A stretch of DNA of 63,652 nt, filler included, from Thraustochytrium aureum (taxonomy: Eukaryota): assembly GCA_012862495.1 (NCBI GenBank). It is 4 parts of 2 records of this genome, joined end to end, with 100 filler letters (N's around TTAATTAATTAA, not from the genome) between each part and the next. Parts side by side here need not be neighbours in the genome. Positions count along the whole stretch, not along the records: positions 23,323 to 34,550 come from BLSG01000314.1; 3 more parts are not named here. One strand, given 5' to 3'. Below the pieces are notes generated by a model that had not been told where the DNA came from, did not search any database, and was given only the letters and a program-made list of their open reading frames with translations. The position numbers and the translations under genes were made by a program. Positions 927 through 45,138 of this stretch are shown piece after piece (within the stretch, counting starts at the first letter, position 1; each line of letters begins with the position of its first letter).

Positions 927-3900
927 TCAGTTGAGGCTCATTAGTCCCAACGTCGTCGCATTGCGCCCAAAGGACTGCTGCGGTGGCGGCGGCGTCGCGA
1001 GCGCGACTGGCTTTGAGCGGTAGTCCAACGGCCGATCTCGACGCGAGACCGTAACTGGGGATTGCGACTTGCTGAGGCGCTTTCGCGCAGTGAGCGGTGC
1101 AGTGCTCGAGCCCCGCGGAGTCTTGTGGAAAACCTTGGTGCGCTCCAAGTGACCAAAGGCCTCCCACCAGTTGTCGTCCAGCACAGAGTTGCCACGGCGC
1201 GCCTTGAACCACTGCCGCTTGCGTGGGATGCAAAAATAGTCGACAATGCGCGGCTCTTGCTCGCGGCGCTGCTTGCGGCTCCGAACGTACGCCGGAACCC
1301 ACCGGCTCGGAAACTTGGCCCCGTACGAGGCGATTTCCGGGTCCAGCTCGTCAATGTCGCTATCGCGGTTTGAGAAGTGCGCCCGCAGGAGCCGCGTCCA
1401 CGTGCTGGACCAGCGCCGGTCCTCGCGCCACTCGCGCGGCACGCGGTCAATCCCAATCACGTACGCATGAAGGTCCCCTTCCGCATCGATACGGAATCTT
1501 ACAAAGCTCTTGAAGTCGGGGCTGCGAACCGACGAGAAGGCCTCGTTCCAATGCAGCTGCAGAAAGTTCACCGAGATGAAAAGGTACAGTCCCAGCACGA
1601 GACCCACTACGTCTGCAGCGATGACAAATAGAAACAAAAAGTTGCCCGCATAGTATGCGGTCAGCTCGAAACGCGACAGCACAGGCGGCATCGCCGCGAG
1701 GCTCGCGGACACAAAGTCGGTTGCATTGGTCAATGTTTCGCCCGCGGCAGCGGCGGCGGTAGCGCCCGCAAACCGGGCGCAGGTCTCAGCACTCGCGACA
1801 GCAGAGCCAAACAACGCGGGCCGCTCCACAAGCCCGCGGCAGATTCGCACCCGCGTGGTTGCCATGTTCTCAGGCATGTCAAACACGCGCAAAATCGTTC
1901 GCAGCAGCGAGTTGAGCAGCCCAGTAGTCCACCAGGCTTCGGGCATCGTGCGCCGCTCAAAGCTTTTGAACGACTCGAAGATGCTGTCATAGCCCTGGCC
2001 AGCCAACTCGTCCCGGATGGCTACCTCGACGGCGATCTCAAGCAGTAGGAAGAGCATAATAGCAGAGAAAACGTGCACCGCCGCATGCACCACCCCAACA
2101 AGCGTCTGCCGCCAGCGACCGTAATGAAAGTCCGCAAACGAGACTGTCGCAGCGACGGTGACAAGCGTGACGAACAGCGACACGACGGAATCCGTCCACA
2201 GTTCGCCGAACACTGCCAGAGTCTCGCCCAGAAACTGAGAGATCCCGTCGGGGTAGAAGCGCGCACTCATGATGTGGTCCAGATCACAGCGCGGGAAGAA
2301 GGAAGCCACCATGAGAAAGTATGCCGTGGAGCCGACAATGTCAAACTTCCAGTTCTGGAGGCGGAAGCCCTGCCCCAAGTTTTGCATTCCAACGCGTCGG
2401 CTCTGCGCAATATTGGGGTAGTTGCGCTTGCACTTGTAGTGCGCCCCAGTCTCTTTGAACCGGGCGGGGAACGTGTGCGTCGGGTGGAGAAAGGCCCCGC
2501 CGCCGCCCGCGACGACCAGGACCGGCGCTGCCCCAGCACGCAGCGCGGACTGCCGCAGCGGCTGCTCGGCGTCGTGCCGCATGTAATTGTGTATGTCGCC
2601 GGCGATCCGCATCGCCACGCGCCCTCGCAGGTGGCGCCGCATCAGCTGCTTGAGATTCTTGGACGACTTTGCAATCGGCTGGTCCTCTGGGTGCGGGTGG
2701 TTCAGATACGCGTCAAGCACCCACGTGGGCTCATGCGAAGCAAGGATGACTTGGTCAGCTTCGCCCACCTGCTGGCTCGCGATCGACGCAAAGTACTGGT
2801 ATTGAAGCCCGTCAATGTCCTCGTTGAGCCCAAAGTCCATCGCAAAGAGCCACCACCCGTGCGGGAGCTTGAGAGCAAAGTACGACTTGGTCTGCGGCAT
2901 GCGCCAGCCGCCCAGCCAGTCCCGGTAGCAGATGCACTGCATGTATGTGTCGAGGCCGTCAAACCAGTCGTGGTTGCCCGGGATGGCAAAGACGCAGGGT
3001 GGGCCGCTCCGCGTCTTGGGCGACCCGCTGCCATCGGCCGCTCCGTTGCGCGGCGCATCGCCGCGCCCAGCCAACGACGACCCGCTGGCGGCGCTCTGGC
3101 TCACCCCGGTGCTCGAGCCTCCGCTGCTCTTAAGTGCGGTGGCATTGTGCGAGCAACTTGAAGCGTCGTCGCAGCTGCAGGTCGAGGACGCGCTCGTGGC
3201 GGCCGAATTCAGCGAGTTGGTGGACCCGCCAATTTGAAACATCGCCCCGCTGCTCTGGTGGCTGATCCCCTTGCGCAGCGGCCGCGACCCGCTCCCGACC
3301 CGCGTGCTGTTGGAACTGAACAACGCCGAGTCGTCAACGGTTCCCGAGCGTCGCCCGTCCCGCCGGCGCGCGCCCCTGGAAAACGAGTCACCAACCTGGC
3401 CCAAGTCGGCCTTGCCAACTTCATCGGCCTTGACGAAGCTCAGTCGGCTGGTAAGCACGTACCCGCTCTCCTCTGCGTTGGTGGTCGCGATGTCGTCACG
3501 GTGGTACGAAGGCGGCGGCTCCATCGCATACTCAAATGGGACGAAGAGGCGCTGGTCGTACTCTTTTATGGATGGCGTTGGGTAAGCCAGATCGCCCCCG
3601 ATGACCAAGAGATCGCCGCGCTTGAGGTGCTCGAGCTTTACCGCTCCCTCTCGCACCTCGGATCCCGCGGCATTCGAGCTCCCGGGACCGTCGCTCGGGC
3701 TTGCTCCGGCAGGGTCTTGCTCCTTGTCGCGTTGCGCCTGCGAGAATGCGGGCAGCGCAAGCTCGGGCTGCGCCACAGCGCGCGCTATCGCATACGTCGG
3801 GTTCCCGCCGTCGCCCGTGTCAGCGAGCCAGTCGAACCACAATTCGTCCAGGTCGGCGTACCGCGCGTCATAAGTAGGCCGGTGGCCGGCCCTCTTGCGG

Positions 3901-5292
3901 CGCGCAGCTTTTGCACCTCTCCGGCGCGCCACGCGCTTGCGTTCGCCCTCATCGTCGGTTCCGTCGTCACCGTCGAGTGGGGACCACTCAAATCCTTCGC
4001 CTTGCCCTCCCTCGACGCTTTCCCGTCGCTCGAGCCGTTGCTCTCGGAAGGGTTGTAGTTCTCTGGAAGTGCCGCTTGCAAGGTGCGCATGTCGAAGCGG
4101 CCAAGGAAGAGCTTCATGGAGATGAGGAGCTGAAACGCCGTCTCCGTGACGGCGAGCGAGTACCATTCAGCCATGGGCATGAGGTTTTTGGGCGACTTGC
4201 AAGGCCTCCGTTGCAGTAGCGACTCGCTGGGCCCCAACTTGCTTCCAGAGTCTGGCGGAAGGGGCGAGCTCGGCTCGCAGGGGAGGCCTTCCGCGTCGAC
4301 GTCCTGTTCGTACTCGTCCTCGCTGGCCTCGTCGTCGTCCTCATCCTCGTCGCGAGCGGCCGACTCGACCGCCTTGAGGTTGTCCGAGCTGCTGCTGAGG
4401 ATGCGCTGTCGCTTGCGGCGCACGGCGCGCTCGTGAAGCGTCTGGTTGATGCGCTTGGTGCGGCGCAGCGTGTAGTAGGTGGCCCATAGGGCCACCCCGG
4501 AGAGCCACAGCAGGCCAAGCGGGCTCTCCAAGAGCGACAGCCGGCCAAGGTCAAAGCCCAGCACGCGGAAGATGAGGTCGCCGTCGTCGCCCCAGTACCC
4601 ATCGATGGGCGGGAGCAGCGTACTGCAAACCGCGTCCGAAATTGCTGTTACCAGGTTGTCCGGGCGCGCGACGCCGCCACCACTAGCAGGGTCGCAGACC
4701 ACGCCAGCTCCGACACGACCCGGCTCGGCGCCCGCAGCGCACTTTGCCTCGGGCATCGTTTCGCAGTACGCAAAGAGCGTGCTCAGCAGGCCGGAGAGCA
4801 CGATGCTGGCCTTCAGGATGGTCTTGAAAGAGCGCATTGACCTCAACGCCGGGACCCAGAGCGTCTCAGCGAGCTTGGGCGAGCAGAGGCCAAGCGCCCA
4901 GGCAAACACGTGGTGCGCCATCGTGAACGCGGCCAGCGTGATGTGTGTCACGACAAGGAGCAGGATGAACGCAGACGTGAAAAGGATGCTCGGGTGGTCC
5001 TCCACCTTGCTTGACCCTAGTGGCGTGTGCAGCACTGCCGCAGCGAACAGCCAAATCAGGATCCCGACGCGAAGGTCCATGTACACCGAGTGCTTGCTCG
5101 AAATCAACGGCACGGCCATATTGTAAAAAACACGACCAACCCGAGCACAATCGCGAGCCACCTCACCGAGTGATTGCTCTTCCGCTCCCCATCTGCCACC
5201 TCGATCTCCGTCTTCTCCGTGAACAGCCCGGCCAGCCACACCCCGAGCCTGCCGAGGCTCTCTGGCAGGGCCGGTTTCGCCGCGCCGGCCAT
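927..5292 (-). CDS. Multi-pass membrane calcineurin-like metallophosphoesterase (plant At4g11800-like family); 2 apparent frameshifts (~5128, ~4020)
   Basis: Joins ORFs 5104..5292, 3785..5359 and 927..4166. Motifs: FLGRFDMRTLQAA, WFDWLADTGDGGN, GGDLAYP, IPGNHDWFDGL, HEPTW, AGDIHNY, GGGGAFLHPTH, HWNEAFSS. Several hydrophobic helices at both ends. Confidence 0.85.
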
Positions 5293-23322: not shown

Positions 23323-23824
23323 GTGGCAACTCAGCTTCCCGCTCCCTCTCACAAGGCCATCAGGCTCAGCACCTCCGGTCGCGCCTCGCTCCTTGCCGAG
23401 GCGCGCAAGCGCTGCGCAGACTGGCACGCGCCGGTGCCGGATCTGCTGGAGGCGACCTCGGAGCTCGATGTTACCGGGTACCCGGCGTACGACCGGCCGC
23501 CGCCAGAGCTGGTTTGCCGCCGGGCCGGGGACGGGCCGCATCGCTTGTGCAGATCCGCGCTCGAAAGACAGCGTTGTTCTCATCGGCGACGCCGCGCACC
23601 CAATGTCGCCTTTCAAGGGCCAGGGCGCCAACCAAGCCCTCATCGACGGCTGGTCTCTTGCTGCTCTCTTGTGCAGCACGCCTCGCGATGGCGATGCCTT
23701 GGCTGCCTTCGAGGCGGAGATGGTTGCAAGGGTGCGGCCAAAAGTGCAAGCCAGCGCTGAAGCTGCGCGCGTGCTCCACACCCAGGCGAGCGTCGACGTG
23801 CGCACCGCGCGCCAGGTCACCTAA
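23323..23824 (+). CDS. FAD-dependent monooxygenase, C-terminal fragment; frameshift ~23510
   Basis: WHAPVPDLLEAT...GYPAYDR followed by VVLIGDAAHPMSPFKGQGANQALIDG (GD motif). Confidence 0.85.
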
Positions 23825-24018: not shown

Positions 24019-24849
24019 CTAGACCAACTCAAACCGGGAGTCGTCCACCCTAGACGGCTGCCACGCCTTCGTGTTGTACCAGTTCCGCACCGAACAAAAC
24101 AGTGAAGCATACAGGAGGATGTTGATGAGCGACAGCGACAAGCCGATCCAGCAAAGATCCGTCACGAGGTTCAAGGCCCGGACTGACGCGGCCCAGGACG
24201 CAGACGAAAACGTTGCGCCCTCGGCAACTGCCAACGCGGTGACGGCCGTTTGTGCTTTTTCAAAGCACGATTCCGGTGTGTTGTAGAAGCCCATCCCCAC
24301 CGTCGACACCATGGCCAAGATCATAAACATGAGGAACACGCTCGTGGCGTAGGAAAACAGCACGCCGCGCCAGAATGGCTCCATTCGTTCGTACCGGATC
24401 AACCCTGCAACATCGATGGAGGCGTACGCGATCGGCATCACGAGCCCAAAGATCAGCAGCGAGTCGAGCACGATCATGGCAAGCGCTGTGCCTCGCGGAC
24501 CCGTTGTGCTCGAGGGAAACAGCTCGCTCGAGCTCACGGTCTGCGTTGCAGCGCAGTCGCCCGCGACAAAGAACGAGTTTGCAGGCGTGTTGTAGACTGT
24601 GGCGTACAAGCTCCCGCCGTCCCCTGCCAGCTCGTACGTGATCACGTCGTTCAGGCTCACGAGCGCCACGAGCGCGAGCGAAATCGCCAGGCACGTCACA
24701 TAGAACAGCAGGATGCAGCCCCTCTCATTATTGCAGAACGCCCACAAGTACCACGCGACCCCGGGCGCCTTGATCTTCTTCGTCCTGAGCTCGTCCTCGT
24801 CGCTGGAGGACTCTGTCAGGTCGACCTCCTCCTCCTCGGAGTGGGCCAT
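24019..24849 (-). CDS. Uncharacterised ~4-TM membrane protein
   Basis: ATG at 24849, acidic N-terminus, four hydrophobic helices, GC3-rich codons. Confidence 0.7.
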   Translation of the reverse strand: MAHSEEEEVDLTESSSDEDELRTKKIKAPGVAWYLWAFCNNERGCILLFYVTCLAISLALVALVSLNDVITYELAGDGGSLYATVYNTPANSFFVAGDCAATQTVSSSELFPSSTTGPRGTALAMIVLDSLLIFGLVMPIAYASIDVAGLIRYERMEPFWRGVLFSYATSVFLMFMILAMVSTVGMGFYNTPESCFEKAQTAVTALAVAEGATFSSASWAASVRALNLVTDLCWIGLSLSLINILLYASLFCSVRNWYNTKAWQPSRVDDSRFELV

Positions 24850-25563: not shown

Positions 25564-28500
25564 TTACGAGGACGGCGGCGGCGGCGGCGGCGGCGCACGG
25601 CGCTGCGCGATTTGGTTCATCGACAGCGTCTGGCCTGTGTAAGGGTTGTACACGTAACCGTTCCCGAGCGGGCGCCACATGTCGCCAAGCTCGGCTGGGT
25701 TCGCCCGCTGCTGCTGCTGCTGTTGCTGCTGTTGCGGCGGCAACGGCGCGGCGCGCCCGAAGCGCCTTGAAAGCATGACTGGACGAGTGGGGGGCGGCGG
25801 GCGACTGGGCGGGAAGGTGCCGCTTTGACGGTTGGACGCGCGCTTGAGCGACATGCGCTGGATGCTCGAGTGCTGCATCCGCAGGGCCGCGGGCACAGAC
25901 CCCTGCATGTTGGCTGCAGGACGGTTAAAGTTCGGGCGCGCCGGGCGCGCAGGACGCGCCGGGCGGCTCGGCGGGAGTTGCTGCACTCTGGGGCCCCCGG
26001 AGAAGTCGTCAAAGCCTGAGATGCGCCTTTCACCGCCGACGTTGGCCTCCGCGACCTCCTCGATGAGCTCGTCGCGCAGGTCGAGAAAGGAGCGAGCGCG
26101 CACAGCGTGATACGCGTCCACCTTTTGCCAGTAGGCATAGACGCGGAGAAAGCGCATTACACGAACGATTCCTGCCAGGACGAGCTGGATCGTAAACTCG
26201 GCGGCGGTGCCAGTAGCCTGGAACACGAGCGCGACGTCCACGATGAGCGTGAGCGCGCCCACGGCATCGTATCCACCAGCCCAGGTGCAGTCGAGCTTGC
26301 CGTCCAGCGTAGTGGGGATGAGCGCGAAGAGCTGGTAGAAGAAGAAGAGCACGTAGATTCCCGAGACCATCGCACTCGTGACCGCAAGCGCGATCGGCAC
26401 AACCACGACATCTGACGGGGACGTGGAAGTCAGCTCAAACTCAAACTCGCACAGGTACGCGCTCGAGTAAAAGTCGACCAGGAAGAACAGGAAAAACAGG
26501 TTGCGGTCAAGCAGGATGGCGGAGAGTCGAGACTGCACAAAGCTGAGCTTGACCTCCTCGTCAGCATAGTAAGCCATCTCCACCTCCGGCAGGCCGTGGA
26601 GGGCGAGCTTGGTGCGCCGGGGCTCAGATTGAACGCGGACACGCTGCCAGCTGCGCCCTGTCGGCCGCCAAGGTTTGGCGTGGAGCGCGGGGTCCCCGCA
26701 GTCATGGACGAGTCGCTGCGGTTCAAGCCCGACTCTTGGCGCTTCATGGTGGGCGTCTGGGCCTCGAGCATCGCGTTCATCGTGTTCTTCCCACTGCCCC
26801 CAGCGCCAGAGCCTTGGCGGAGGAGGGGTGTGCGGCCTCCAGCAGGCGAGCCAGCCTTGCTCTTCTCCGCGTCGTCCGAGACTCGGTTCAACGTGTTGCC
26901 GCGGTTGAGCACGTAGCGGAGGTAAAAGTCGAGAACGGCGAGCCCACGAAACACCACGACAAAAATCACGAGGACCAGAATGCAAATGTACACATTGCGG
27001 TCGTCGTACGAGAGCGTCTGGATGATCACGTCGCCGGTGCGGGCCGCCCTCTCCAGGACAGAGGCTTTCTCAACGGGCACGACGAACCCGGAGAGGTCGT
27101 TGATGATGGTGCCCACGAACGACCAGTAGGTGACCATAATGTAGGGCACCCACGACAAGTAATCGGGAATGTCGTCCAGCTTGATGATGAAGCCGTTGAA
27201 GAGAGCGCCGAGGCCCAGCAGGCCGATCTGCAGCATGGCCGCCGTCCGCAAGTCGTCGCGGTCCACCTCGATGAAAACGTTCTGGCAGAGCACAACGAAG
27301 GAGGTCAGCACCATGATGAGCATGTACAGCCCGAACCGCTCTATGGCGGGATTCATCCCGCCAACCCAGTAAACGGGGGCCGCAAAAGCAATGCCTTCGA
27401 CCGAGGACGCCACGCAGTCGCGCAGAAACTGGCTGATCAGGAACGCGACCCAGCTCCTGAAGGTCCCCGCGTCCGTCTCGTGGTCGTACATCTGCTTCTC
27501 GCCGAGGTACCGATCCCCCAAGAACGTGCCTTGCAGGAAGGTCATCGTGGCCACAACGAGGTACGCAAGCGCCGTGCGCGAGGTGTACGTGTCCGTGCCG
27601 ATGAAAACGATCCCGACGAGGGTGCCGCCCACGAGCGCGAGCGAGGTGGTGGTCATCAAGTCAAACCCGCCCCGGCGAAACGACCTTGACATGAGCACCC
27701 AGGAAAGCATCGCCGAGGAGGAGGATTCAGACCAGGACCAGCGCCCTTCAGCGAGCGAGTTCTCCACGAGGACCTCTTTCAGGTTTGTGATGAGCTCGGT
27801 CGTGAGCTCGGTGGCCTCTGCCTCCATTTCCTCGCGCACGGCGTCCCCCAGCGGGCCGTTCGCGTACGCAGACTCAAAGTCCTTGATACGCGCAGGCTCG
27901 CAGGTCTGGAGCACGTCAAGGATGTCGTTTGCGATGTTGGTCGAGTTGGCCGGCAGGCGAAAGTGCATCGCGGCCGCCTCAGCGGCGCCCGAGAACACCA
28001 CGCGGCCCTGCACGAGGAAGCTCAGGCTGTCGAGGTGGCTAAAGATCTCCTTGCGCGGTTGGTGGATGGTCATGAGCACGTTGACGCCGCCCTCGTGCGC
28101 AAAGGTGTGCAGCGCCTTGACGAGGAGCAGGGCGTTGGTGGAATCCAGACCGGATGTGGGCTCGTCCAAGAGGAGCACGGCCGGCATCTTGAGCAGTTGC
28201 GTCGCCACAGAGACGCGGCGGCGCTGACCGCCAGAGATGCCGCCCTCCACGGTGATTCCACCGTCGCCGCACTGCGTGTCGCCGCATTCGTCCAGCTCGA
28301 GGAGCCGCATGACCTGCCACACCCGGCGCAGCTTTGCCTCCGCGGACATGTACTGCGGAAGCATGAGCCAGGCCGCGTGCACGAGGTGCTCGCGCACCGT
28401 GAGCAGCGGGAAGAGGACGTCGCTCTGCCGGACGTAGCTGGAGTTGTGGCGCATCCACTCGCGCAGGAACTTGCAGCTCGCCGAGTCGGACGGGACGCCG

Positions 28501-30523
28501 TTGATGTAGTGGGCGCCAGAGATGTTGCCGCTGTCGCGCGTCAAGGCGAGGATGTCGAGCAAGGTCGACTTGCCGCTGCCAGACGGGCCCATGATGGCGT
28601 GCACACGGCCAGGCGCAAAGGTGAGGTCGACAGACTCGAGGATCTTGAACGGCTTGCCGCGGCGCGTCTTGGCCGGCGCCCAGTAGCTGAGACCCTCCAC
28701 CATGAGGTGGATCTNNNNNNNNNNNNNNNNNNNNNNNNNNNNNNNNNNNNNNNNNNNNNNNNNNNNNNNNNNNNNNNNNNNNNNNNNNNNNNNNNNNNNN
28801 NNNNNNNNNNNNNNNNNNNNNNNNNNNNNNNNNNNNNNNNNNNNNNNNNNNNNNNNNNNNNNNNNNNNNNNNNNNNAAAACAGCACGAGAACCGAAAGGC
28901 CGTACCCGATCGTCAAAAACTCCCAGCACTTTGTTCCCAAAGTCTCGATCTGGCCAGCCTGGTAGGGAATGATCTTGGTCGTGCACTCGGTGTTGCACAG
29001 AAACGAGCCGCACTCATCCGCAAGCAGGTTGCCTCGCGTCTCGAAGCTGCTCGAGTTGGTGCCGTCCGATTCAATGAACGCGACTATGCTCTCGCGCACG
29101 GAGACCCCGTTCACTCTGACGTTCTCCCACACGTCTTGGTTGCGCTGGAACTGCACGGACCCGAACGTGCCGATCTGCTCCGTCCGCGGGTCGACGGTGT
29201 GGATCGAGGTCGGCACGATGTAGCCGTGCTGCCCGCACGCAGTCGCGTAAAAGTGGTGCTCGTCGCTAGAGCCGCGAACGGCTGCCGCGCGCTCCATATC
29301 GCTCCGCACCATCTCCCCATAGGTCTCGATATACGAGATTGCAGCAGACGCGTACGCAGCGGTGTCCACAAAGTCTTCGTGGCATCTTCCTCCAAAAGGC
29401 CCAGCGACTCGAGCTGGACAAGGTCGTAGAGCGACTGCACGAACAGAAGCGACTCGTTTTTCATGTGCGTGATCAAGTTGCTGGGGAACAAGCAGTTGTG
29501 CCGGCGGTCGCCTTTGCTCGCCTCGCTCGAGCCCCACCTTGCGAGGCAGTCCGGGTTGAGCCGCGCCGTGGGGAGCCAGTCCGCGCTTTCCTTCACCAGA
29601 AAGTTCTCGAACGCGAGGACCTGCTCCACGGGTTCGTCTGCAACCGCGAAGGCCTCGGTGTTGTAGAACCAGGCCGAGTCAAGCACAGAAAGCACCTTGC
29701 GTGGGACAGTGTCTGCCTGGCCCGTGAGCTCGGCATGGACCGAGCTTAGAATAGACTTGATCTCGTCCAGGTTATTGAGGAGCCCCACCGCGCCGCCGCG
29801 GGTGCCACCAATCACGATCCTGCGCGCGTACGTGAGATTGTGGGCAACTGCGAGGTCCAGGAGGACAGTCCGCAATGCCAAGTTGCCGCGGTGCCGCGAG
29901 GCGGCCTTCCCACCGACTGCATCGGGTGAGGTTCCGCGCCCCAGCCACCAGTCCAGCGTGCATGCTGGTATGAAGACGCGTTTGAATTTTTGGAAGAAGG
30001 GGTCATCGTGGCAAAGCAACGTCTGCGGGGTGACCTCGTCGAACGACGAGTACCAGCTGCTCGTGCAGGTCACGCGCGAGTAGAGGCATCGCGCCGTGGC
30101 CTCGTTGATCTCGTCCTCGGAGAGACCGCCGTTGATGTTGTTGTTCCTCACGTCTTTGCAAACTTCGCCAGAGAATTCCGCGTCCGTCCTATTGGTGCCC
30201 TCGCACAGTTGCGTGCACTTGTCCCCTGAGCAGATGTCGGAGTCGCCAAGCCAGATGATAAAGTCCAGCTCGTAATTCTCCGGCCGCAGAACGAGGCCGT
30301 CGCGGATGTCGTCTCCGGGCTCGTCGTAATAGTAGGCCACTTCCGACCCGTCCGCGCAAGTCCCGCTGGACGTGTACCCTGTCAGCCCTTCCGCGGCGGA
30401 CACGTTCGGAAACGTGAGCTTGAGCTTTTCTTTTGCCGTGCAGGCAGCGGCCTCGCCTCGCTCGCCGCCGAGCGCCACGATGGCGCCAGCGGCGGCAGCA
30501 ACGAGCGCCACGACCTTCCTCAT
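25564..30523 (-). CDS. Fusion protein: signal peptide, Notum/pectin acetylesterase-like ectodomain, TM, ABCG half-transporter, voltage-sensor-like domain, Pro/Gln-rich tail; frameshifts ~29382 and ~26620, one gap
   Basis: PAE-like motifs: CADGSEVAYYY, VFIPACTLDWWLG, HRGNLALRTVLLDL, QSLYDLVQL, CGQHG. ABC motifs: GPSGSGKST, ISGGQRRR, LLLDEPTSGLD, TIHQP, plus a 6-TM ABCG domain. S4-like GIVRVMRFLRVY. Confidence 0.75.
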
Positions 30524-32328: not shown

Positions 32329-35300
32329 ATGGCCGCCCGCGGCAAGGGCAAGCTCGACTACAAGCGCGTGATCACGGAGTTTTACAAGCAGTATGCGCCA
32401 GAAAAGGTGCGCGAGGTTGGCAATGTGCTGAGCCATTTTCGCGGCAGAGAGCGCGACCTCATCGGCACGCTAGAGGAAAAGTACAAGGTCGTGTTCAAGC
32501 GCGACGGCACGTTTGTGCGACGCGAAGAGGAAGAAGACGGCCTTGAATCGGAGTACACGTCCTACAACTCTGACGACGACCTCGACGGCACCTCCGAGAC
32601 GGAGGACGACGAAGACGACGACGAGGGCGAGCTGGACTTTGACGGTCTTGGTGTCACCAAGGAGGAGTTCGAGTTCTCGTTCAAGAGCGAGCGCGAGAAG
32701 GCAGCCGACATCGCACGCGCCGCCGCCAGAATCGTAAAGTCCAGGCCGCCCCCGACAAGCAGCACAAGCAACAAAGGCATGGACAAGTCCCAGAGGCCCA
32801 CGTCCAAGAAGCTCGCCGCGAAGAGCGACAAGGAGGCCAAGCGCAGCTCCGCCAAGAAAGAGGCCAAGCGCAGCTCCGCCAGCAAGGAGGCCAAGCGCAG
32901 CTCCACCGAAAAGAGCAAACGGAGCTCCAAGCGGGCCTCGTTCGACCTGTCGCGCTTCATACCAGACCGGTTCAACAAGAATCGCGACGNNNNNNNNNNN
33001 NNNNNNNNNNNNNNNNNNNNNNNNNNNNNNNNNNNNNNNNNNNNNNNNNNNNNNNNNNNNNNNNNNNNNNNNNNNNNNNNNNNNNNNNNNNNNNNNNNNN
33101 NNNNNNNNNNNNNNNNNNNNNNNNNNNNNNNNNNNNGACCGTCCCCGACGCCGTCCGCGAAAAGCAAGACCTCCTCGCCAAAAAGGGCGTGCCGGTCTGG
33201 GTCCCCGACGAAGGCGAGGCTTGGGTCCGTGGCAGAGTCGCCAGCGACACCCCTGGAAAGGGCGGCCTGATTTCCGTCAAGCTCGAGACGCCCCGCAACA
33301 AGACCGTGACCGTGGACCCGCGCGACGCGGAGCCCGTGCTCGCCGCGCCAGAGCACCTCGTTGCTGTCAACGACCTCACCAAGCTCCCGGCGCTGCACGA
33401 GCCCGCGCTGCTCGAAGCCCTCGACGTGCGGTTCAGGAAGGACCTGATTTACACGTTCACGGGGCCCATCCTGCTCGCAGTCAACCCGTTCAAGTCGGTA
33501 AGTCTGTACGGCACCAAGCAAGCCAAGCGGTACATGGAGGCCGCGCGCGGGTTTGAAGCAAGCGCGAGCGGGGCCCTCCACGCCGTGAGCCTGCCTCCGC
33601 ACGCGTACAAGCTCGCAGACGACGCCTTCCGCGCGATGCTCGACGACGGCGGTGCCAACCAGAGCATCCTGGTCAGTGGCGAGTCGGGGGCGGGCAAGAC
33701 CGAGACTGCCAAAATCGTCCTGCAGTACCTCTCGTACGCGAGCTCGGTAGGGCGCAAGAAGAAGGCCTATGTGGCCGACCGCGTGCTGCAGGCCAACCCC
33801 GTGCTCGAGGCGTTTGGGAACGCCAAGACGCTGCGCAACGACAACTCGAGCCGATTCGGCAAGCTGATTCAGGTCCAGTTTGACAAGAACAAGGCGGCCA
33901 TGACCGGCGCCTACATCGAGTCCTACCTCTTGGAGAAGGCGCGCGTCGTGCACCAAGCCGACGGCGAGCGCAACTACCATATCTTTTACGAGCTCGCCGC
34001 CGGGGCTAGCCCAGACCAAAAGCGCCGCTGGAGCTTTCCCTCGCTCAAGCGCTCACGCTACACTGGCCGGAGCCGCGCCATGGTGCGTAGCGACATCGAC
34101 GACCTCGCCCAATTCCAAGCGACCTTGACCGGGATGCAGGTGCTCAACTTTGCGCCAGCCGACATCGAGCGCGTGTTCCGCACCGTCGCGGCCGTGCTGC
34201 ACCTTGGCAACGTCGAGTTCGCCGAGCGCACAAACAAGCACGGCGAGGCGGCCGCCAAGGTGGCCAACGCCGCGGAATCCCTTGACCTAGCCGCAGACCT
34301 TCTCGTGGTGAAACCGGAGGACCTCGCTAAAGTCCTCACTTCCCGCACGATCCGCGTATCGGGCTCGGAGACTGTCAGCAAGCCGCTGTCGGTCCAGGCC
34401 GCCGGCGACGCCCGCGACGCGCTCGCCATGAACCTCTACGAGCGCCTGTTTGGGTGGATAGTCTGGCGCACCAATCTTAGCATCGGCATGGACGACAAGC
34501 AGTACGAAGCCATGCTGGCCCGCCAGGAGCAAAAGCGCAAGTACCAGGAGNNNNNNNNNNNNNNNNNNNNNNNNNNNNNNNNNNNNNNNNNNNNTTAATT
34601 AATTAANNNNNNNNNNNNNNNNNNNNNNNNNNNNNNNNNNNNNNNNNNNNACGCGCGCCGGGTACCCGTCGCGGTTTGCGATCCCCAGCTTCCTCGAGCG
34701 ATTCGCCGTTCTGAGCTATGGCCTGCGCAGCGCGGCCAAAAAGGCCTCTGCCTTGGCCAAGAGCGGCGACCAGAAAGCCCAGCTGCGTGCCTGCCAGAAG
34801 ATCTGCGACAACGCCAAGCTCAAGTTTGGCGAAGACTTCCAGATCGGCCGCACCAAGGTCTTTCTGCGCCAGTCCACCCTCGCGTACCTCGAGATGAAGA
34901 AAGCGGAGCGCACGTTCGACTGTGTCGTGACCATCCAGCGCGCATTCCGCCGCTTTCGCGGCGAGTTCCGCCAGCGCTACCACGCCGTCGTGATCCAGCG
35001 CAACGTCCGCGGGTGGCTCGTTCGCCGGGACGTGCGCGATGTTCTGGACCAGCGCGCCATCGCGGCAGAGATCATCCAGACCAACCCGCACTTTCAGCGC
35101 TGGCTCGACTATGTCATGCGCAAGTCCCGCGCAGAGCGCCGCAAGCGCCGCAAGCGCCGCATGGCGGCGTGGCGGCCGCCCAAGTGGTACGTCAATAACC
35201 GCGAGCTGGTTTGGTGGGCCGTGCCCGCGTTGCTGGTCTATTTCGTTCCGGCGTTTGTGTTTGCGTTTCTGCGCTTCGTGTTTGCGAGCCCGACACTGGT

Positions 35301-44258: not shown

Positions 44259-45138
44259 CTACTTCTGGGCCTTGTTCGTGCTCGCGAGCGCCCGCAGCTG
44301 CTCGTAGAGCACAAAGAAGGTGGAGCACCAGATCACTTTGCGGACGCAAATGGGCACGAACCCCTTGTAGAGCGCGCCAGGGCCCTCTTCGGCGGTGATG
44401 CGGCGCAGCGCGTCGCCGATGCCGCGATAGTGGTCGCCGCCGACCTGGCCCGCCGCGTTCATGAGGCGCGTCTTGATGACGTCCGCGGGGGTCGACACGA
44501 GCGCCGAGCAGACCCCGCTCAGCGAACTCGCGCCAAGGTGCGCCACCGCGTTGTCGCCGACGAACGGGACAAGCGAGGTCTTGGCCTGGTCGTAGGTGCC
44601 TAGCTCGACGGCATTGACCAAAAAGGTGCGCATAACGTTTGGCTTGAGCCCCGCCCAAAATCCAAGCACGCCGTCCTTGTTGAGCACCTGAAAGAAGACT
44701 TGGCGCATGCCCACCTTGGCTTGCGAAGCTTGCATTCGCGTCTTGAGGACCTCGGTCCAGTTGAAAACCGCGATGCTGACGCCCCCGGCGGTGCCGCCTG
44801 CGATGAGTCGCTGCGAGTAGCTCGCGGTCCCGTCGCCCCCCGAGGCCGCCTGTCGCGCCCACCACTGCGTCGCGGATCGGCTCGTACAGCACGAGCGACG
44901 CAGACGAGTAGCAGCACTGCCGCAGCAGCGAGGGCGGCAGGCCTTTCCAGAGCGCGCTCCGGCCCTCCTGCGCGTGAATCTGCTTCAAGCAGTCCACCAT
45001 GCCGCTGTACTTGAGCTTGCCGGCCTCGGCGTGCTGCACTTGCAGCCTCACCTTGGCCACGTCGATCGGCAGCGTGACCAGCTCGGACACGCCGGACGCG
45101 ACCAGCGAGGCCCCAAACCTCGACGAGTGGTCCCCCAT
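44259..45138 (-). CDS. Mitochondrial carrier (SLC25), uncoupling protein / dicarboxylate carrier-like; frameshift ~44838
   Basis: PIDVAKVRLQ, YSGMVDC..QI...EG..ALWKGL.P.LLRQ, NAVELGTYDQAK, PADVIKTRLMN, ALYKGFVP. Confidence 0.9.

What the first reader, a model, noticed from the sequence alone, without database searches (positions are those of the whole stretch)
25564..30523. Notum/pectin-acetylesterase ectodomain + ABCG transporter + voltage-sensor-like domain in one predicted protein
Seen in sequence: three overlapping minus-strand ORFs join into one frame if a single base is added at ~29382 and at ~26620 (a C4 run), the same defect found in conserved genes across this window. The order is signal peptide (MRKVVALVAAAAGAIVAL), PAE/Notum-like hydrolase, TM, an ABCG NBD with intact Walker A/B, signature and H-loop, 6 TM, a Ser-rich linker, a 4-TM domain and a Pro/Gln tail. 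Established: some ABCGs carry ectodomains (yeast Adp1 has EGF-like repeats). I know of no ABC transporter with a PAE ectodomain or a voltage sensor. Inference: this could be a ligand-sensing, voltage-coupled transporter or a transporter-derived receptor, and is the best candidate for a new system here.
Basis: partly seen in the sequence, partly recalled or inferred. Interest (0 to 1): 0.88.

Follow-up and report, generated by a model that had tools for sequence, protein, structure and literature searches.

The report
ABC pump carrying a voltage-sensor-like domain
This is one real gene, split only by two assembly errors, from a small protist family in which an ABC transporter is fused to an outer esterase-like domain that has lost its catalytic serine and to a likely voltage sensor, so it would be an ATP-driven pump predicted to be tuned by membrane voltage.

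Summary
The fusion is real. Short-read contigs carry the missing base at both breaks (behind 29377/8 and 26592, not 26620). Read through, the gene gives 1653 aa without a stop. It belongs to a compact family of 28 proteins (47-100% identical in the core, then a drop to about 30%). The family includes two Hondaea fermentalgiana paralogues and a complete MMETSP transcript; 25 carry the PAE domain and 24 the 4-TM domain. The ABCG core has every ATPase motif. The ectodomain has the Notum fold but looks catalytically dead: Arg usually replaces the nucleophile Ser, and none of 25 homologues keeps both Ser and His. The 4-TM domain is likely a divergent voltage sensor (about 80%): invariant S1/S3 aspartates, RxxRxxR in S4, and weak hits converging on Ci-VSP, Hv1 and Ion_trans. 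No test reached significance, the S2 glutamate is lost, one subgroup has a decayed S4, and two members lack the domain. Best reading: an active ABCG lipid exporter with a ligand-holding pseudo-esterase outside and voltage-sensor regulation inside. Function is untested. Ten literature searches found no description of this family.

The parts
25564..30523 (-). Whole gene, about 1653 aa, no intron needed; two one-base assembly losses
   Evidence: homologue L001:6149-10924 is one intronless 1591-aa ORF
30455..30523 (-). Predicted signal peptide (aa 1-23)
   Evidence: hydropathy peak 1.8; similar N-termini in P0003, P0011, P0017; no SignalP run
28950..30442 (-). Notum/PAE-fold ectodomain, Cys-rich, predicted pseudo-esterase
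   Evidence: Pfam PAE; Notum E=4e-9; model of Hondaea homologue pLDDT 74, Foldseek Notum E=1e-18
29798..29800 (-). Arg242 at the place of the Notum nucleophile Ser (GTRGG against GSSAGG)
   Evidence: alignment; column
29423..29425 (-). Asp367, triad-acid position, invariant in the family
   Evidence: match to Notum Asp340 is by recalled motif
29226..29228 (-). His433, triad-His position; variable in the family (H, N, P, T, Y)
   Evidence: match to Notum His389 is by recalled motif
29377..29378 (.). Break 1: one base missing in the assembly; two variants (C or T on +) in X1 and X3
28715..28930 (-). Single TM helix after the ectodomain, running into the 162-N gap (54 codons)
   Evidence: TM at 520-608 in homologues
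27950..28712 (-). ABCG nucleotide-binding domain: Walker A 28589, signature ISGGQ 28238, Walker B 28175, H-loop 28070
26905..27660 (-). ABCG membrane domain (ABC2_membrane, 6 TM expected)
26515..26904 (-). Variable Ser/Gly-rich linker with a short conserved TM..ML..QTP motif; break 2 behind 26592
26050..26514 (-). Four-helix voltage-sensor-like domain: S1 Asp 26475, S2 Tyr 26355, S3 Asp 26268 and 26238, S4 Arg 26163/26154/26145, conserved post-S4 helix W-x-K-V-x-x-Y-H-x-x-R from 26130
25564..26049 (-). Pro/Gln-rich tail with a degenerate WW-like motif (about 25677-25620) and terminal polyproline
   Evidence: weak Pfam WW in homologues P0011 (E=5e-4) and P0008 (E=5e-3), both under the cut-off

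Best explanation
One gene encodes an ABCG half-transporter with intact ATPase motifs, fused to an outer Notum-fold domain that lacks the catalytic serine and to an inner-tethered four-helix domain that is likely a voltage sensor predicted to tune the pump. Shown: the fusion, the motifs, the lost nucleophile and the conserved S1/S3 Asp and S4 Arg pattern. Inferred steps: (1) it dimerises and hydrolyses ATP like ABCG1/2 and moves a lipid or other amphiphile across the plasma membrane; (2) the dead Notum domain holds an acyl ligand in the pocket that in Notum takes palmitoleate, with the substituted Arg able to pair with a carboxylate, and so acts as cargo acceptor or sensor; (3) membrane potential moves S4, and the conserved helix that continues from S4 into the cytosol releases or restrains the ATPase cycle, by analogy with SLC9C1; (4) the Pro-rich, WW-like tail recruits partners. 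The predicted topology (ectodomain out, 1 TM, NBD in, 6 TM, linker in, 4 TM, tail in) gives the sensor its native N-in/C-in orientation.
Confidence: 0.5

Rival explanations
1. A transporter-derived receptor. Ligand binding to the dead Notum domain is passed through TM0 to the NBD, and the ATP cycle acts as a switch (as in SUR or CFTR, recalled) whose output is the 4-TM domain and Pro/WW-like tail rather than cargo export.
For: Dead enzyme ectodomain with a conserved Arg; a single TM joins it to the NBD; signalling-type tail; core conserved at 47-80% across paralogues.
Against: The membrane domain keeps ABCG features such as LFNGF; tail and 4-TM domain are absent in P0038 and P0040; no catalytic output domain.
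Confidence: 0.22
2. An ordinary ABCG lipid exporter whose appended 4-TM domain, whether sensor-derived or not, no longer senses voltage and serves folding, dimerisation or trafficking.
For: S2 charges lost; decay in 5 and loss in 2 of 28 members; inconclusive fold and profile tests.
Against: Three basic S4 residues are kept in 19 of 24 and the middle Arg in 24 of 24; three membrane aspartates are invariant in 17 of 17, which costs energy if no charge moves.
Confidence: 0.2
3. The 4-TM domain is an Hv1-like proton pathway tied to the pump, for charge or pH compensation.
For: Invariant mid-S1 Asp and three S4 Arg; the best membrane fold match is mHv1cc.
Against: The Trp of the RxWRxxR signature, described as perfectly conserved in high-confidence Hv1 genes (PMC4621752), is absent in 24 of 24.
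Confidence: 0.06
4. Separate genes or a pseudogene joined by chance.
For: Three frames in the assembly; P0042/P0008 may be a split form.
Against: Reads hold the missing bases; over 20 intact one-ORF homologues.
Confidence: 0.02

Closest known systems
ABCG half-transporters (ABCG1, ABCG2, plant ABCG25)
   Same: NBD before a 6-TM domain, all ATPase motifs; E about 1e-50 to 1e-43. The Hondaea member is annotated simply 'ABC transporter G family member 22' (GBG30839.1).
   Different: Adds a signal peptide, Notum-fold ectodomain, extra TM, 4-TM sensor-like domain and Pro tail; only 26-31% identical to nearly all of the next ABCGs listed.
Ectodomain-bearing ABCGs (yeast Adp1, plant ABCG24/28; recalled, one search found no paper)
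   Same: Ectodomain-TM-NBD-TMD layout.
   Different: The ectodomain is an alpha/beta-hydrolase fold; no EGF hit in Pfam; extra C-terminal membrane domain.
Notum / pectin acetylesterases
   Same: Fold (Foldseek E=1e-18, TM 0.7-0.8 to target), triad Asp, C-x-D-G-S and PxCxxDxW motifs.
   Different: Ser232 site is Arg; the Gly126-Gly127-Trp128 oxyanion loop (PMC8172013) is G-D-x; His variable; membrane-tethered to an ATPase.
[quoted passage not shown]
   Same: A transporter with a C-terminal sensor whose S4 continues into cytosolic helices.
   Different: Secondary against primary active transport; no cyclic-nucleotide-binding domain here; three rather than five S4 charges; S2 Glu lost; coupling not shown.
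Ci-VSP and Hv1 stand-alone sensors
   Same: Four helices, S1 Asp, S3 W/D, three S4 Arg, no pore.
   Different: No phosphatase domain; no Hv1 Trp; sensor lies C-terminal to its putative effector.

Membership tests
ABCG half-transporter | NBD N-terminal to an ABC2-type membrane domain | tested here: met
ABCG half-transporter | Intact Walker A, Q-loop, signature, Walker B Glu, D-loop, H-loop | tested here: met
   window and 10 of 10 homologues
ABCG half-transporter | Dimerisation, ATP hydrolysis, substrate transport | not testable with these tools
   needs purified protein
Notum/PAE carboxylesterase | Notum alpha/beta-hydrolase fold | tested here: met
   (model is of Hondaea homologue P0026)
Notum/PAE carboxylesterase | Nucleophile Ser in G-x-S-x-G | tested here: not met
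   Arg in the window; Ser in 1 of 25 homologues, P0036, whose His site is Tyr
Notum/PAE carboxylesterase | Triad Asp and His | tested here: inconclusive
   Asp in 10 of 10, His in 5 of 10; positions assigned by recalled motif, not by superposition
Notum/PAE carboxylesterase | Gly-Gly-Trp oxyanion loop | tested here: not met
   G-D-x, G-E-G or D-D-T in 10 of 10; position assigned by recalled motif; loop defined in PMC8172013
Voltage-sensing domain | Four TM helices S1-S4 | tested here: met
Voltage-sensing domain | Basic residue at every third place of S4 | tested here: met
   R-x-x-R-x-x-R in the window; 19 of 24 homologues
Voltage-sensing domain | Charge-transfer centre: S2 aromatic, S2 Glu at +3, S3 Asp (PMC10620092) | tested here: inconclusive
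   aromatic 17 of 17 and S3 Asp 17 of 17, but the Glu site is never acidic (Q12, F2, H, Y, L)
Voltage-sensing domain | Significant sequence or fold similarity to known sensors | tested here: inconclusive
Voltage-sensing domain | Gating charge movement | not testable with these tools
   needs voltage clamp
Hv1 proton channel | Mid-S1 Asp | tested here: met
   D35 in 17 of 17
Hv1 proton channel | RxWRxxR with Trp | tested here: not met
   no Trp in 24 of 24; signature from PMC4621752 and PMC10377628
Adp1-like EGF-ABCG (recalled) | EGF-like ectodomain | tested here: not met
   no EGF family in Pfam scans

The most novel reading that the evidence does not exclude
The first voltage-gated ABC transporter: a primary active pump or transceptor that opens its ATP cycle only when an outer pseudo-esterase holds an acyl ligand and the membrane potential moves its own S4 sensor, a coincidence detector built by labyrinthulomycete protists.
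Probability: 0.35. Interest if true: 0.95.

Novelty: new variant of a known kind. Interest (0 to 1): 0.82.

Why it matters
Outside channels, voltage sensors are known to control very few effectors. A 2023 paper calls SLC9C1 the only known sensor-regulated transporter (PMC10620092). A sensor on an ABC ATPase would extend electromechanical coupling to primary active transport. It would give a natural part for voltage-controlled pumps, and a natural test of how a sensor works without the S2 glutamate. The family supplies its own controls: full, decayed and absent sensors. An Arg-for-Ser Notum domain would be a new type of lipid-binding receptor module. The one securely named host is a thraustochytrid, a lipid-rich group (recalled), so a role in lipid export is testable. 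The Hondaea member sits in public databases under a plain ABCG name.

Tried and rejected
No whole genome is held for the window. No listed run is on record as RNA: X1-X3 are only guessed RNA, so expression here is not shown. The 5-sequence sensor profile found no sensor in PDB sequences. Pfam found nothing relevant on its members. Foldseek gave no match at E<=0.001. hhalign against bacterial sensors was inconclusive in local mode; global mode was a second look and also inconclusive; 45 matches from loci L082-L136 were used. The complex fold of pump core with the 4-TM domain gave no verdict (score 0.00, alignment not used, partner fold uncertain). The metagenome scan gave 1 locus from 108 matches. 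Literature: searches (ABCG + voltage-sensing domain + fusion; pectin acetylesterase + ABC transporter + domain architecture; thraustochytrid + ABCG; Hondaea + ABC; labyrinthul + voltage sensor; Adp1 + EGF; pectinacetylesterase/thraustochytri/labyrinthul/ABC) gave no paper on this family; I judged their rows by title and abstract start only. Searches were for background. The library lacks most subscription papers, and I read no supplements, where ABC inventories could list these genes. Earlier scan findings: nothing. Rejected: tiny introns at the breaks (contigs show added bases and no joints there); the ~26620 junction; an active esterase. A family-wide tree and column count for P0027-P0043 could not be run, so those counts are by eye.

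Full report
OBSERVATION. The minus strand holds three overlapping frames. Pfam gives PAE for 29384-30523 (E=1.6e-13), ABC_tran and ABC2_membrane for 26622-28712 (E=2.6e-26, 1.1e-16) and nothing for the last frame. Nine runs were listed; 7 hold part of the stretch, 4 of them about three quarters of its words. Contigs laid on either side of the N gap show one extra base behind 26592 in X1, X2 and X4 (X5 has no cover). They show one extra base behind 29377 or 29378 in X1, X3 and X4 (X6 has no cover). X2 and X4 bridge the first place with more than 31 letters on each side, and X4 bridges the second. These runs come from two studies, and X4 may be the source sample. One 3513-letter X2 contig runs from the NBD to the tail (25604-28714). 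With an unknown base at each break, the frame is 1653 aa with no internal stop. A mitochondrial carrier elsewhere in the window is also in two frames, consistent with an indel-prone assembly.

FAMILY. The ectodomain found 4 longer proteins among 7994 candidates, each one ORF with PAE + ABC_tran + ABC2_membrane and the same 4-TM domain and tail. A profile of the 4-TM domain found 19 of 1.84 billion representatives. Eight are full length and all have the three Pfam domains, two are partial with ABC2_membrane, and nine are short pieces without ABC domains. Some of those nine lie on 1-2 kb contigs, but free forms are not excluded. The core of the Hondaea protein retrieved 28 rows at 47-100% identity, then a drop to 26-31% for nearly all later rows (named ones mostly fungal ABCGs). 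Of the 28, 25 carry PAE; the other three are cut at the N-terminus. Named sources are Hondaea fermentalgiana (two paralogues) and an assembly labelled Batrachochytrium salamandrivorans (two). No other fungus is among the 28, so contamination or transfer is open and untested. P0017 is a complete MMETSP transcript ORF. L001 encodes P0004 without introns. In a 12-row unrooted tree of the core, the window protein falls in a 96/96 group with Hondaea P0026 and P0001-P0003 (cluster mates, partial proteins and the later P0027-P0043 were left out). A thraustochytrid host is therefore likely (inference). No prokaryotic fusion appeared.

ABC CORE. All ATPase motifs are intact in the window and in 10 aligned homologues. 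The best solved relatives are CDR1, ABCG2 and ABCG1. It is an ABCG by every feature I could test.

ECTODOMAIN. A model of the Hondaea ectodomain (pLDDT 74) matches Notum at E=1e-18. The Notum nucleophile aligns with Arg242. In 25 homologues the site is Arg 18, Gly 4, Asn 1, Leu 1, Ser 1, and the one with Ser has Tyr at the His site (by eye). The oxyanion loop is also changed. Notum's triad, oxyanion hole and palmitoleate pocket are from passages of PMC8172013. So it is a predicted pseudo-esterase. That the Arg binds a carboxylate is my inference.

MECHANISM. Best (0.50): an active ABCG dimer exports or flops a lipid-like cargo; the dead Notum domain holds the acyl ligand outside; S4 motion acts on the ATPase through the post-S4 helix; the Pro/WW-like tail docks partners. 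Rivals: transceptor (0.22), voltage-blind accessory domain (0.20), proton pathway (0.06), artefact (0.02). Shown: fusion, motifs, lost nucleophile, charge pattern, fold of the ectodomain. Inferred: topology, dimer, cargo, ligand, voltage coupling.

KNOWN AND NOVEL. Each module is known; the combination was not found in seven targeted searches. PMC10620092 (abstract and passages) calls SLC9C1 the only known sensor-regulated transporter. The Hondaea record carries the PAE/ABC domains under a plain ABCG name, and no Pfam family marks the fourth domain. I file it as a new variant of the ABCG kind, interest 0.82. If voltage coupling is shown it would be a new kind of system (probability 0.35, interest 0.95).

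Noticed in passing
window 23324-23821 (+) and L001:10976-12319: An FAD-dependent monooxygenase lies near the 3' end of the gene in both (44% identity): directly downstream in L001, inverted and one gene away in the window. Loose synteny despite about 43% against 60% GC.
   Followed up: partly
window 24019-24849 (-): A 276-aa multi-TM protein without a Pfam match directly downstream of the gene.
   Followed up: no
window 44259-45138 (-): Mitochondrial carrier-like gene (recognised by eye) split over two frames, probably the same assembly defect. Other split-looking genes at 927-5119 and 32329-34598 (myosin).
   Followed up: partly
window 29074-29408: Runs X1 and X3 each hold two sequence variants at about equal depth, as from a diploid or mixed strains.
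   Followed up: no
P0027, P0035: Two family members are labelled Batrachochytrium salamandrivorans (BASA81) while no other fungus is in the family: contamination or gene transfer, untested.
   Followed up: no
P0039: The second Hondaea paralogue has EF-hand and GTP cyclohydrolase II domains in front, with no signal peptide there; probably a merged gene model.
   Followed up: no
P0013, P0027-P0033: One subgroup has an insertion of about 250 aa, Pro-rich and charged, between TM0 and the NBD, with a conserved 'IDLVALAEALTS' motif.
   Followed up: no
window about 26451 (-), end of S1: An invariant Cys (C43) at the outer end of S1 has no invariant partner in the domain; it could bond to the ectodomain, the ABCG outer loop or the other subunit.
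   Followed up: no
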